Part shown: positions 5,322 through 13,521 of the stretch, in pieces
Numbering within the stretch: position 1 is the first letter of the stretch
How the letters are laid out: each line of letters opens with the position of its first letter
IMG/VR virus record: IMGVR_UViG_2526164613_000010
Strand: one strand, 5' to 3'
DNA: 13,521 nucleotides
Origin: a virus
Taxonomy: Duplodnaviria; Heunggongvirae; Uroviricota; Caudoviricetes
The notes under the pieces: generated by a model
The model's input: the letters and a program-made list of their open reading frames with translations, nothing else
Told to the model about the DNA's origin: nothing
Databases searched by the model: none
Program-made: the position numbers and the translations under genes

Positions 5322-7335
<2,014 letters not shown>

Positions 7336-7348
7336 ACGGAGGTCATAC

Positions 7349-11809: not shown

Positions 11810-12553
11810 ATGACACAGACAGAATCAGCGATTCTGGCGCATGCCCGGCGGTGTGTGCCTGCGGAGTCGTGGGGCTTCGTGGTGAGAACGCCGGAGGGGG
11901 AGCGGTATATCCCTTGTGTGAATATCTCTGCAGAGCCGGAGGCGTATTTTCGTATTGCACCGGAAGACTGGCTGCGGGCAGAGATGCAGGGGGAGATTGT
12001 GGCACTGGTCCACAGTCATCCCGGTGGTCTGCCCTGGCTGAGCGAGGCCGACCGGCGGCTGCAGATAAAAAGTGCACTGTCCTGGTGGCTGGTCTGCCGG
12101 GGGGACATTCATAAATTCCGCTGTGTGCCACATCTGACAGGACGGCTCTTTGAGCACGGGGTGACGGACTGTTACACGCTGTTCCGGGATGCATACCATC
12201 TGGCGGGAATTGATATGCCGGATTTTGAGCGTGAGGATGACTGGTGGCGCAATGGTCAGAACCTGTACCTGGACAATATGGAGGCGACTGGTTTTTACAG
12301 GATTTCCCTGCCTTCCGCACAGCCTGGCGATATCCTGCTGTGCTGCTTTGGCGCATCGGTGGCCAATCATGCCGCCATATACTGCGGCAACGGTGAACTG
12401 CTTCACCATCTGCCTGAACAACTGAGTAAACGGGAGAGGTATTCCGAAAAATGGCAACGACGAACGCATTCTGTCTGGCGTCACCGCCACTGGCACGCAT
12501 CTGCCTTCACGGGGATTTGCAACGATTTGGCCGCCGCCTCAGCCTGTATGTGA
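11810..12553 (+). CDS. K: Tail tip assembly protein gpK (JAB/MPN metalloprotease-like plus NlpC/P60 cysteine peptidase-like domains)
   Basis: MTQTESAILAHARRC.PAES.GFVV.TPEGERY.PCVNIS.EPEA...PEDWL.AEMQGEIVALVHSHPGGLPWLSEADRRLQ..S...WWLVCRG.IHKFRCVPHLTGR.FEHGVTDCYTLFRDAYHLAGI.MPDF.REDDWWRNGQNLYLDN.EATG.Y...L...QPGD.LLCCFG.SV.NHAAIYCG.GELLHH.PEQLSKRERY..KWQRRTHS.WRHR.W.ASAFTGI.NDL matches lambda gpK. JAMM-like HSHP...S..D and NlpC/P60-like Cys (DCYTL) and His (NHAAIY) are present. Confidence 0.93.
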   Translation: MTQTESAILAHARRCVPAESWGFVVRTPEGERYIPCVNISAEPEAYFRIAPEDWLRAEMQGEIVALVHSHPGGLPWLSEADRRLQIKSALSWWLVCRGDIHKFRCVPHLTGRLFEHGVTDCYTLFRDAYHLAGIDMPDFEREDDWWRNGQNLYLDNMEATGFYRISLPSAQPGDILLCCFGASVANHAAIYCGNGELLHHLPEQLSKRERYSEKWQRRTHSVWRHRHWHASAFTGICNDLAAASACM

Positions 12554-13131
12554 ACACGGCAGCGGAAGCCATCCGGGCGCTGTTGTTACAGGTGCCGGGA
12601 TTCCGCCGTCAGATGAACGAAGGCTGGTACCAGATACGTATTCGCGGTGAGGACACGGCACCGGAGGCGGTGTACGCCCGTCTTCACGAACCTCTGGGTG
12701 AGGGGGCGGTCATCCATATTGTGCCGCGACTGGCCGGAGCCGGAAAGGGCGGACTGCAGATTGTGCTGGGGGCGGCGGCCATCGTGGGGTCGTTCTTCAC
12801 GGCCGGGGCATCAATGGCGTTATGGGGTTCAGCCCTGGCAGCCGGTGGTTTTTCTGCCACCACGATGCTGTTTTCACTGGGGGCCAGCATGATTCTGGGT
12901 GGTGTGGCTCAGATGCTGGCCCCGAAGGCTAAAGTACCGGAGTACAAAAGCACGGATAACGGCAGACAGAACACGTACTTTTCGTCGCTGGATAACATGA
13001 TTGCCCAGGGGAACCCGATGCCGGTGCCTTACGGTGAAATGCTGGTTGGCTCCCGGCGAATCTCCCAGGACATCAGCACCCGTGATGAAGGCGGTGACGG
13101 GAAGGTGGTGGTTATCGGGCGGCAGGCATAA
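12451..13131 (+). CDS. I: Tail tip assembly protein gpI
   Basis: ...ARICL.GDLQRFGRR..L.V.T.AEAIRAL..Q.P.FR......GWYQ.RI.G.D........LHE.L..GAVIHIVPR.AGA..GG.FQIVLGAAAI.GSFFTAGA.....G.A..AGG......FSLGASM.LGGVAQMLAPKA..P....TDNG.QNTYFSSLDNM.AQGN..PV.YGEM.VGSR..SQ.IST.DEG.....VVVIGR matches lambda gpI. About 100 nt overlap with the 3' end of K, as in lambda. Confidence 0.9.
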   Translation: MATTNAFCLASPPLARICLHGDLQRFGRRLSLYVNTAAEAIRALLLQVPGFRRQMNEGWYQIRIRGEDTAPEAVYARLHEPLGEGAVIHIVPRLAGAGKGGLQIVLGAAAIVGSFFTAGASMALWGSALAAGGFSATTMLFSLGASMILGGVAQMLAPKAKVPEYKSTDNGRQNTYFSSLDNMIAQGNPMPVPYGEMLVGSRRISQDISTRDEGGDGKVVVIGRQA

Positions 13132-13142
13132 AACATAAAAAA

Positions 13143-13174
13143 TCCCGCAGTGCTCACGGACAGGAACTGCGGGA
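13143..13174 (-). other. Hairpin in the I-J spacer, terminator-like when read on the minus strand
   Basis: TCCCGCAGT (13143-13151) pairs with ACTGCGGGA (13166-13174) around a 14-nt loop. On the plus strand an A-rich tract AAACATAAAAAA at 13130-13141 precedes it, overlapping the last base or two of the I stop; on the minus strand that is a T-tract trailing the stem. The loop is large for an intrinsic terminator. Confidence 0.3.
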
Positions 13175-13304
13175 GAGTTACGAAGATTAACTATAGAGAG
13201 TTATTCTTATGTCACGACAAAAAACATTAACGCAGAGAAATTATTAGCGCCACAGTCAGTGTGTGAAAATGTGAAGATATTCAGAATTTTTATTCAGTCA
13301 TGAT

Positions 13305-13338
13305 ACAGGCATCCTCCGGGATGCCTGTTGTTTTTGTG
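13305..13338 (+). terminator. Strong rho-independent terminator-like hairpin in the I-J spacer, about 30 nt upstream of the J start
   Basis: 10-bp stem ACAGGCATCC (13305-13314) pairs with GGATGCCTGT (13319-13328) around loop TCCG, followed by TGTTTTTGTG. Confidence 0.55.
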
Positions 13339-13369
13339 CGTAACAGTTATCACAGTAAAGGGTGAGACA

Positions 13370-13521
13370 ATGGGCAAAGGTGGCGGCAAGGCGCACACGC
13401 CGGTAGAGGCAAAGGACAATCTTAAGTCCACGCAGATGATGAGCGTGATTGATGCCATTGGTGAAGGGCCGATTGAAGGTCCGGTGAAGGGGCTGCAGAG
13501 TATCCTGGTGAACAAAACCCG
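13370..13521 (+). CDS. J: Tail tip / host-specificity protein gpJ, 3'-partial (continues beyond the window)
   Basis: MGKGGGKAHTPVEAKDNLKSTQMMSVIDAIGEGPIEGPVKGLQSILVNKT matches the lambda gpJ N-terminus (MGKGSSKGHTPREAKDNLKSTQLLSVIDAISEGPIEGPV.GLKS.L.N.T). A GGGTGAG Shine-Dalgarno-like motif lies upstream. Confidence 0.92.
   Translation, partial: MGKGGGKAHTPVEAKDNLKSTQMMSVIDAIGEGPIEGPVKGLQSILVNKT

What the first reader, a model, noticed from the sequence alone, without database searches (positions are those of the whole stretch)
13132..13369. Enlarged AT-rich I-J spacer with two opposed hairpins: possible small RNA locus or moron scar
Lambda has only about 60 bp between I and J as I recall; here the spacer is about 238 bp and visibly AT-rich against a GC-rich operon. 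It has a hairpin at 13143-13174 that looks terminator-like on the minus strand, and a strong plus-strand terminator-like hairpin at 13305-13338 just before the J RBS. No protein ORF fits; the longest is 12 codons. Inter-gene spacers in lambdoid tail operons are common sites for moron insertion, so this may encode a small RNA or be the remnant of a lost moron.
Basis: partly seen in the sequence, partly recalled or inferred. Interest (0 to 1): 0.45.

Follow-up and report, generated by a model that had tools for sequence, protein, structure and literature searches.

The report
Known prophage small RNA gene (PasB family)
The long AT-rich gap between tail genes I and J holds a divergent copy of PasB, a small regulatory RNA gene already found by experiment in pathogenic E. 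coli prophages, so the finding is real but mostly already known.

Summary
The I-J spacer is 238 nt (13132-13369) at 40% GC, against 60 bp in lambda, and it carries two strong hairpins.

The spacer aligns end to end with the I-J spacer of E. coli E2348/69 prophage PP6. There the 83-nt Hfq-dependent sRNA PasB was mapped and confirmed by Northern blot (Pearl Mizrahi 2021). PasB runs antisense to the tail operon and ends at the I-proximal hairpin. After correcting a coordinate offset, the Hfq-bound RNAs EcOnc22/23/24 of O157 Sakai (about 85 nt; Tree 2014) fall on the same element.

In the window the predicted gene lies on the minus strand:
- -35 at 13267-13262 and -10 at 13245-13240
- predicted start near 13233
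- terminator at 13174-13143 plus a U run ending near 13137

The RNA body is only about 58% identical to PasB, while the promoter block is 94% identical. So this is a divergent allele, not a copy.

The second hairpin (13305-13338) is a plus-strand terminator-like element. Lambda's short spacer has a hairpin in the same position. I found no promoter for a plus-strand RNA ending there.

Close relatives carry the sodC moron at the same junction.

Verdict: a new member of a known kind, of low to moderate interest.

The parts
12451..13131 (+). Tail assembly gene I. Its stop codon lies 5 nt before the predicted 3' end of the antisense sRNA.
   Evidence: ORF list; Pfam PF06805 Lambda_tail_I, E = 5e-15; annotated as tail assembly protein in relatives.
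13137..13233 (-). Predicted PasB-family sRNA, about 97 nt as a primary transcript. The 5' end reported for PasB in E2348/69 maps to about 13218, giving about 82 nt.
   Evidence: Colinear alignment with the E2348/69 PP6 spacer. PasB coordinates come from Table S6 of PMC8550237. The fold is -21.6 to -23.9 kcal/mol, z about -3.
13143..13174 (-). Rho-independent terminator hairpin of the sRNA (9-bp stem, 14-nt loop), followed on the minus strand by U6 at 13142-13137.
   Evidence: The 7 core stem pairs are invariant in 24 alleles while the loop varies.
13182..13191 (-). Conserved single-stranded motif GUUAAUCUUC in the sRNA. It is a candidate seed or Hfq-contact segment (inference).
   Evidence: Nearly invariant across 14 distinct sRNA alleles, while the flanking body varies.
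13240..13245 (-). -10 hexamer AATAAT of the sRNA promoter.
   Evidence: Promoter scan. The same position reads TATAAT, AATAAT or TATCAT in other alleles, and A at position 2 and T at position 6 never change.
13262..13267 (-). -35 hexamer TTCACA, 16-nt spacer to the -10.
   Evidence: Present in the window, E2348 and L039 allele types. It is degenerate (TTCTGT) in the L010 type.
13270..13285 (.). CRP-like box TGTGA-N6-TCAGA inside a nearly invariant 40-nt block (about 13262-13304).
   Evidence: One mismatch to TGTGA-N6-TCACA. The window has 3 such sites against 0.5 expected. The box is nearly invariant in 24 alleles. Its centre lies about 44.5 nt upstream of the predicted start, which is not a canonical CRP position.
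13305..13338 (+). Plus-strand terminator-like hairpin (10-bp stem, loop UCCG) plus the U-rich tract UGUUUUUGUG, 31 nt before the J start codon.
   Evidence: One stem pair covaries U-A to C-G in 10 alleles. Wobble variants fit the plus strand 4 to 1. Hairpins of unrelated sequence occupy the same position in lambda and in the 342-nt allele.
13370..13521 (+). 5' end of tail tip / host specificity gene J (MGKGGGKAHTP...).
   Evidence: Translation; annotated as J in relatives.

Best explanation
The spacer holds a self-contained, antisense-oriented small-RNA gene of the PasB / EcOnc22-24 family, inserted between tail genes I and J of a lambdoid prophage.

A sigma-70 promoter on the minus strand (-35 TTCACA at 13267-13262, -10 AATAAT at 13245-13240) starts transcription near G13233. 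The RNA runs toward gene I. It ends at the hairpin 13174-13143 and its U6 tail, a few bases past the I stop codon, giving an RNA of about 82-97 nt.

By homology with PasB and EcOnc22, it is expressed in the lysogen, stabilised by Hfq through the terminator-plus-U-tail module, and pairs in trans with host and prophage mRNAs. The conserved GUUAAUCUUC segment is my candidate for the pairing or Hfq-contact region.

The nearly invariant block upstream of the -35, with its CRP-like TGTGA-N6-TCAGA box, probably controls the promoter.

The second hairpin is a separate element. It is a plus-strand intrinsic terminator in front of J. Q-modified polymerase would read through it during lytic growth. In the lysogen it would stop stray rightward transcription from entering J.

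Shown here: homology, anatomy and conservation. Shown by others for homologous alleles: expression and Hfq dependence. Inferred: the start site, the seed, CRP control, and the insulator role of hairpin 2.
For: 1. Locus identity. PasB is listed at NC_011601 1466343-1466261, minus strand, 83 nt, between E2348C_1436 and E2348C_1437, Northern-validated and Hfq-dependent (PMC8550237). Those two genes are I and J. The window spacer aligns colinearly with that spacer at 90% mean column identity.

2. EHEC counterpart. EcOnc22/23/24 (about 85 nt, destabilised in delta-hfq; Tree 2014 Table S2) lie in the I-J spacers of Sakai Sp15, Sp14 and Sp11, on the strand antisense to the tail operon. Tree's coordinates run about 120-170 nt below NC_002695.2. 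Three controls show this: Esr41 and AgvB and the EcOnc42 homologue. With that offset the Hfq peaks fall on the PasB-equivalent segment.

3. Gene anatomy. The only promoter-like sites in 12900-13521 are on the minus strand, at the right distance from a minus-strand terminator.

4. Conservation. The -10 keeps A2 and T6 in all 24 alleles. The terminator stem is invariant and its loop is free to vary.

5. Folding. The sRNA and both hairpins fold better than shuffles, z = -2.7 to -5.4.

6. Insertion relative to lambda. Lambda has only 60 bp, containing just a plus-strand hairpin.

7. Expression pattern. PasB is higher in static overnight LB than in the virulence-activating growth condition, the opposite of Spot 42. 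This fits catabolite activation but does not prove it.
Against: - No expression data exist for this allele. Its body is only 52 of 89 aligned positions identical to PasB, so targets, and even stability, may differ.
- RNAalifold finds no conserved structure apart from the terminator, and the terminator shows no covariation because it never varies.
- My predicted start (13233) is about 15 nt upstream of the 5' end reported for PasB.
- The CRP-like box is centred near -44.5, not -41.5 or -61.5.
- The block's conservation could simply reflect recombination between phage modules.
- The EcOnc22 equivalence rests on an inferred coordinate offset. One calibrator (PasA/EcOnc51) was ambiguous.
- Rfam has no model for the family, so no independent family score is available.
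- The prophage in the window is defective, with an IS in gene V. This does not by itself affect the sRNA gene.
Confidence: 0.8

Rival explanations
1. Cis-antisense control of the tail operon. The RNA's main job is to pair with the perfectly complementary I-J junction of the late mRNA, triggering cleavage or blocking expression of I or J, much as lambda OOP RNA acts on cII mRNA. Trans targets would be secondary.
For: The RNA is fully complementary to about 97 nt of the late transcript and converges on gene I, ending about 5 nt past its stop codon. Every close relative keeps it at exactly this junction. The sRNA body varies freely, which a cis-antisense RNA tolerates automatically.
Against: The RNA does not overlap the I or J coding sequence or the J ribosome-binding site, which is about 130 nt away. 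RIL-seq found 37 trans interactions for PasB. A 10-nt motif is conserved across otherwise divergent alleles, which a purely cis-acting antisense RNA would not need.
Confidence: 0.12
2. Moron scar or recombination linker. The spacer is leftover DNA from exchange of the sodC moron and from recombination between I and J modules. Hairpin 1 is the old sodC-region terminator, and the conserved block persists only because it mediates homologous recombination. This allele makes no functional RNA.
For: 21 of 80 close relatives carry sodC on the minus strand at this junction, and that cassette shares window 13137-13238. The nearest whole-window relative, DEC5B at 99.5%, has the sodC form. The spacer is a mosaic of sharply different allele blocks.
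Against: The 238-nt form has its own promoter, with a -10 hexamer preserved in every allele. It also has an intact terminator with a U tail. Homologous alleles are expressed and Hfq-bound in two pathotypes. A scar would be expected to decay, yet no degraded copies appear among 24 alleles.
Confidence: 0.06
3. One reading: a plus-strand small RNA of 80-150 nt that ends at hairpin 2 (about 13338), made from a promoter inside the spacer or processed from the late transcript.
For: Hairpin 2 is a textbook plus-strand intrinsic terminator. It has one covarying pair, and its wobble variants favour the plus strand.
Against: No plus-strand promoter-like site is found in 12900-13521. Lambda's 60-bp spacer and the 342-nt allele have unrelated hairpins at the same position, so the hairpin belongs to the J upstream region, not to an inserted gene. 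No plus-sense Hfq peak is listed for these spacers in Sakai, and the EPEC tables held have no I-J intergenic entry besides pasB.
Confidence: 0.04

Closest known systems
PasB sRNA of EPEC E2348/69 prophage PP6 (Pearl Mizrahi et al. 2021, PMC8550237; Zhu, Shabalina and Storz 2026, bioRxiv 10.64898/2026.05.13.724894)
   Same: - Same slot between I and J, and same antisense orientation.
- Same terminator stem (CCCGCAG/CUGCGGG) and U tail next to the I stop.
- Same -35, and the -10 at the same position (AATAAT here, TATAAT in E2348/69).
- Same upstream conserved block (62 of 66 identical) and same second hairpin.
   Different: - The RNA body is only 52 of 89 identical.
- The terminator loop is 14 nt, against 11 nt in PasB.
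- The motif reads GUUAAUCUUC here and AUUGAUCUUC in PasB.
- Zhu et al. describe PasB variants as differing by only a few nucleotides, so this allele class may lie outside their set.
- There are no expression data for this allele.
EcOnc22/23/24, Hfq-bound RNAs of EHEC O157:H7 Sakai prophages Sp15, Sp14 and Sp11 (Tree et al. 2014, PMC4104026, Table S2)
   Same: They lie in I-J spacers, antisense to the tail operon. They are about 85 nt and destabilised without Hfq. The spacers align with the window.
   Different: This is another allele class (the L080 type). Neither Pas paper makes the link between EcOnc22-24 and PasB. That link is my inference, and it depends on a coordinate offset.
Lambda OOP RNA
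   Same: A short (77 nt) antisense RNA with its own promoter and intrinsic terminator, convergent with a phage gene. This comparison is from established knowledge, not tested here.
   Different: OOP overlaps the 3' end of the cII coding sequence and acts in cis through RNase III. The present RNA lies wholly in an intergenic spacer of the late operon, and its homologues are Hfq-dependent with trans partners.
sodC-F1/F2 morons of O157:H7 lambdoid prophages (D'Orazio et al. 2008, PMC2569942)
   Same: They occupy the same I-J junction on the same (antisense) strand in close relatives, and share window 13137-13238 downstream of sodC.
   Different: They encode a protein (Cu,Zn superoxide dismutase). 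They replace the sRNA promoter, the CRP-like box and hairpin 2. The window has no sodC.
Other prophage sRNAs at cargo sites (AgvB, AsxR, PasA/C/D, Esr41, DicF)
   Same: They are Hfq-dependent sRNAs carried by lambdoid prophages as small independent transcription units.
   Different: AgvB and AsxR lie in the moron site downstream of PR', and PasA, PasC and PasD lie beside the holin/lysozyme genes, not in the tail operon. They share no sequence similarity with this locus, and Rfam models for AgvB, AsxR, Esr41 and STnc100 do not hit the window.

Membership tests
PasB / EcOnc22-24 prophage sRNA | Gene sits in the spacer between tail genes I and J, transcribed antisense to the late operon. | tested here: met
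   PasB coordinates, flanking genes, colinear alignment with the window, and the Sakai loci.
PasB / EcOnc22-24 prophage sRNA | Sequence homology to PasB along the RNA itself. | tested here: inconclusive
   The terminator stem, U tail, 5' leader and a 10-nt motif are shared. Overall the body is only 52 of 89 identical, while the flanks are 94% identical. The pattern looks like allele replacement within a homologous locus.
PasB / EcOnc22-24 prophage sRNA | Rho-independent terminator with a U tail of at least 6, the Hfq-binding module of this class of sRNA. | tested here: met
   9-bp stem, -16.1 kcal/mol, z = -3.7, then U6. The stem is invariant in 24 alleles.
PasB / EcOnc22-24 prophage sRNA | Own promoter at a distance that gives an RNA of about 80-100 nt. 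| tested here: met
   TTCACA-16-AATAAT, 10 of 12 matches. The -10 is conserved as TATAAT, AATAAT or TATCAT. This is sequence evidence only.
PasB / EcOnc22-24 prophage sRNA | Expressed as a discrete RNA, bound and stabilised by Hfq. | not testable with these tools
   Shown for the E2348/69 and Sakai alleles in the literature, not for this allele.
Intrinsic (Rho-independent) terminator, hairpin 2, plus strand | GC-rich stem, short loop, U-rich tract immediately 3' of the stem. | tested here: met
   10-bp stem with 6 G-C pairs, 4-nt loop, then UGUUUUUGUG. Energy -19.3 kcal/mol, z = -5.4. One compensatory pair. Actual termination is not testable here.
CRP-activated promoter (class I or II) | TGTGA-N6-TCACA site. 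| tested here: met
   TGTGAAGATATTCAGA at 13270-13285, one mismatch. Nearly invariant in 24 alleles.
CRP-activated promoter (class I or II) | Site centred at -41.5 (class II), or at -61.5 and further helical-turn steps (class I), from the start site. | tested here: not met
   The centre at 13277.5 is 32.5 bp from the first base of the -10, about -44.5 from the predicted start. I therefore do not file this as a CRP promoter. CRP control remains only a hypothesis.
Rfam sRNA families | Score at or above a family's gathering threshold. | tested here: not met
   No hit in the spacer at gathering threshold. The best E-value hits (RT-9, ErsA, BTnc201) have E of 3-7, far below their cut-offs. E2348/69 PasB itself is also unmatched, so the family is simply not in Rfam 15.

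The most novel reading that the evidence does not exclude
The I-J junction may be a dedicated antisense cargo slot. In it, a conserved and possibly catabolite-responsive promoter block drives an sRNA whose body is swapped between phages as a cassette. At least six allele classes share only the 5' leader, GUUAAUCUUC and the terminator. This would retarget host regulation. The same RNA segment also forms the region downstream of the sodC-F moron, so PasB-type sRNAs and the sodC 3' region would have a common origin.
Probability: 0.2. Interest if true: 0.5.

Novelty: new member of a known kind. Interest (0 to 1): 0.25.

Why it matters
The locus is a regulatory RNA gene carried by many E. coli prophages. 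Sequence from this spacer matches about a third of complete E. coli genomes, including Stx-converting phages. Recognising this spacer as a PasB-type gene adds three things:
- It extends the family well beyond the near-identical variants catalogued so far.
- It links two independent experimental discoveries, PasB in EPEC and EcOnc22-24 in EHEC.
- It shows that the tail-operon I-J junction is a recurrent cargo site, holding either the sRNA or sodC.

None of this overturns current understanding. The function of PasB itself is still unknown.

Tried and rejected
- Rfam. Nothing in the spacer at gathering thresholds. The weak RT-9, ErsA and BTnc201 matches (E = 3-7) are chance. Related loci also gave nothing.
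- AgvB/AsxR. I first suspected these EHEC sRNAs, but they lie at the PR' moron site, not in the tail operon.
- Pattern scan of species-representative genomes for the terminator plus motif. It returned 42 stretches. I took all but two Escherichia albertii contigs as chance matches, judged from organism names only and not inspected individually. The pattern was too loose for 596 Gb.
- Alternative -10 (TGnGTTAAT, which would give a start at about 13219 and match the reported 83 nt). Rejected because position 2 of the hexamer is never A in any allele.
- CRP class II assignment. Rejected on spacing (about -44.5).
- Protein coding. ORFs of 21 and 26 codons exist. The ORF from ATG 13300 is open in all alleles, but it has no Shine-Dalgarno sequence, its end point varies from 14 to 41 codons, and its amino-acid changes follow hairpin pairing.
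- Taking Tree 2014 coordinates at face value. This put EcOnc22 on hairpin 2 on the antisense strand. Three calibrators showed the coordinates are shifted. A fourth calibrator (PasA/EcOnc51) was ambiguous.
- RIL-seq target tables. The part I read held PasA rows, not PasB rows, so I did not obtain the PasB target list.

Full report
**What is there**

The window is the head and tail morphogenesis region of a lambdoid E. coli prophage. Gene I (12451-13131; Pfam Lambda_tail_I) is followed by a 238-nt spacer (13132-13369) and then J (ATG 13370). The spacer is 39.9% GC, against 55-65% in the preceding blocks.

Both hairpins are real and far better than shuffled controls.
- Hairpin 1 (13143-13174): -16.1 kcal/mol on the minus strand, z = -3.7.
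- Hairpin 2 (13305-13328): -19.3 kcal/mol on the plus strand, z = -5.4.
- For both, 0 of 200 shuffles fold as well.

The consensus scan calls hairpin 1 a minus-strand terminator and hairpin 2 a plus-strand terminator. It finds promoter-like sites only on the minus strand: TTCACA-16-AATAAT at 13267-13240.

One detail of the finding is wrong. Mechanical ORFs of 26 and 21 codons exist in the spacer.

**Identification**

Rfam has nothing for the spacer. The literature does. Pearl Mizrahi et al. (PMC8550237) list PasB as an 83-nt Hfq-dependent, Northern-validated sRNA at NC_011601 1466343-1466261 on the minus strand, between E2348C_1436 and E2348C_1437. Those genes are the I and J homologues of prophage PP6, separated by 240 nt. 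The window spacer aligns with that spacer end to end. PasB maps to about window 13137-13218 on the minus strand and ends at hairpin 1.

Tree et al. (PMC4104026, Table S2) list EcOnc22/23/24 as homologous RNAs of about 85 nt that are destabilised in delta-hfq, in Sakai prophages Sp15, Sp14 and Sp11. All three lie in I-J spacers, on the strand antisense to the tail operon, and those spacers align with the window.

Taken at face value, their coordinates would place the Hfq peak on hairpin 2. Three controls show the published coordinates run about 120-170 nt below NC_002695.2:
- Esr41 at 1.42 Mb and AgvB at 1.94 Mb.
- The EcOnc42 homologue at 2.92 Mb, only 21 kb from EcOnc22.

With that shift the peaks fall on the PasB-equivalent segment. 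I therefore regard EcOnc22-24 and PasB as the same family. Neither Pas paper makes this link. A fourth calibrator, PasA/EcOnc51, was ambiguous.

**Comparative anatomy**

Among 80 IMG/VR loci whose I protein is at least 95% identical, every I-J spacer is at least 235 nt. There are 32 distinct versions in the full set, which also includes the window, its 100% genome match and E2348/69:
- 24 of 235-260 nt
- 2 of 342 nt
- 6 of 848-851 nt

Across the 24 short alleles the following are invariant or nearly so:
- the A/U run and the terminator stem CCCGCAG/CTGCGGG, whose loop is free to vary
- the motif GAAGATTAAC (GUUAAUCUUC in the RNA)
- a run of A (U in the RNA) near the 5' end
- the -10 position, which reads AATAAT, TATAAT or TATCAT with A2 and T6 never changing
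- a block of about 40 nt containing TGTGA-N6-TCAGA
- hairpin 2 with its U run

The RNA body between these anchors falls into at least six sharply different classes. Against E2348/69 PasB, the window's body is 52 of 89 identical, while the promoter block is 62 of 66 identical. RNAalifold recovers only the terminator as shared structure, with no covariation because the stem never varies. The window therefore carries a divergent allele of a homologous gene, not a copy of PasB.

**Promoter and start site**

The conserved -10 at 13245-13240 predicts a start near G13233 and a primary transcript of about 97 nt. That is about 15 nt longer than the approximate 5' end reported for PasB.

An alternative hexamer that would fit the reported end never has A at position 2, so I rejected it.

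In the L010 allele class the -35 is degenerate (TTCTGT), which suggests dependence on an activator. The box upstream has one mismatch to the CRP core. Three such sites occur in the window against 0.5 expected.

PasB is more abundant in static overnight LB than in the virulence-activating condition. Spot 42, which CRP represses, behaves the opposite way.

However, the box is centred about 44.5 nt upstream of the predicted start, which is not a canonical CRP position. The block's conservation could also reflect recombination between modules. CRP control is a hypothesis only.

**Hairpin 2**

This hairpin is not part of the known sRNA.
- One stem pair covaries U-A to C-G in 10 alleles. Single-sided changes give G-U pairs on the plus strand in four cases and on the minus strand in one.
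- Lambda's own 60-bp spacer holds an unrelated plus-strand hairpin with a U run.
- The 342-nt allele has a third, unrelated and very strong hairpin at the same place.

So a plus-strand terminator-like hairpin in front of J is a recurrent feature of the junction. The enlargement relative to lambda is essentially the sRNA unit, about 170 nt, inserted between the I stop and that hairpin.

I infer that hairpin 2 stops polymerase that has not been modified by Q from entering J in the lysogen. This is untested.

No plus-strand promoter is detectable. The held tables list no plus-sense Hfq-bound RNA for these spacers.

**Moron link**

The 848-851-nt spacers carry a Cu,Zn superoxide dismutase gene (Pfam Sod_Cu, E = 4e-32) on the minus strand. 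These are the prophage sodC-F genes known from O157:H7 (PMC2569942).

That cassette keeps window 13137-13238, which is the sRNA body up to the predicted start. It replaces the -10, the CRP-like box and hairpin 2.

The closest whole-window relative, O55:H7 DEC5B (99.5%), has the sodC form. The junction is thus a cargo site with alternative cassettes. The sRNA segment may also function as the 3' region of sodC transcripts.

**Distribution**

The spacer sequence matches 1766 of 5426 complete E. coli genomes (539 over at least 80% of the query) and 149 phage records, mostly Stx-converting phages. In a pattern scan of species-representative genomes, the only plausible true hits were two Escherichia albertii contigs. 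This agrees with the Escherichia/Shigella range reported by Zhu et al..

**Verdict**

The element belongs to a family already discovered experimentally, twice. The window adds a divergent allele. Its function, like that of PasB, is unknown beyond Hfq-dependent pairing with many mRNAs.

Noticed in passing
window 5610-6830: An IS3-family element (ISEc31; transposase 5614-6827, minus strand, programmed frameshift) splits the tail tube gene V into 5323-5604 and 6863-7336. This prophage therefore cannot make tails. Relatives lacking the IS cover 91% of the window.
   Followed up: partly
window 6672-6794 (-): A full-length, high-scoring match to Rfam isrC 'Hfq binding RNA' (150 bits, E = 3e-37) lies inside the 5' part of the ISEc31 transposase region. 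Here the isrC model appears to be hitting IS sequence rather than an independent sRNA gene.
   Followed up: partly
window 13300-13365 (+): An invariant ATG opens an ORF across hairpin 2 and its U run in all 24 alleles (M[IT]QA[SP]SG[MV]PVVF...). It is 14-41 codons long, and in one allele it is fused in frame to J. In the window it stops 4 nt before the J ATG. In the Sakai allele and in lambda an analogous ORF ends just past the J start. There is no Shine-Dalgarno sequence. It could be incidental, or a translation-coupled way to melt the terminator.
   Followed up: partly
L135 13323-13850 (O55:H7 DEC5B); IMG/VR loci such as L003, L037: The prophage sodC gene sits on the antisense strand in the I-J junction of close relatives. 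It shares the sRNA body (window 13137-13238) as its downstream region, after its own weak terminator-like hairpin.
   Followed up: partly
L133 868-895 (lambda 15467-15494): Lambda's 60-bp I-J spacer contains a plus-strand hairpin followed by UUUUGUCAUUU (-16.5 kcal/mol, z = -2.6). It is a terminator-like element in the middle of the late operon, and I did not find it discussed in the papers I read.
   Followed up: no
Tree et al. 2014 Table S2 versus NC_002695.2: The published EcOnc coordinates are about 120-170 nt lower than the current RefSeq Sakai record at 1.42, 1.94 and 2.92 Mb. Anyone mapping EcOnc sRNAs onto NC_002695.2 will misplace them.
   Followed up: yes
window 13278-13297: A direct repeat TATTCAG...TATTCAG, 13 nt apart, lies inside the conserved block, which also has a 13 of 19 resemblance to a Fur-box consensus. 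The resemblance was judged by eye from memory of the consensus and not tested.
   Followed up: no
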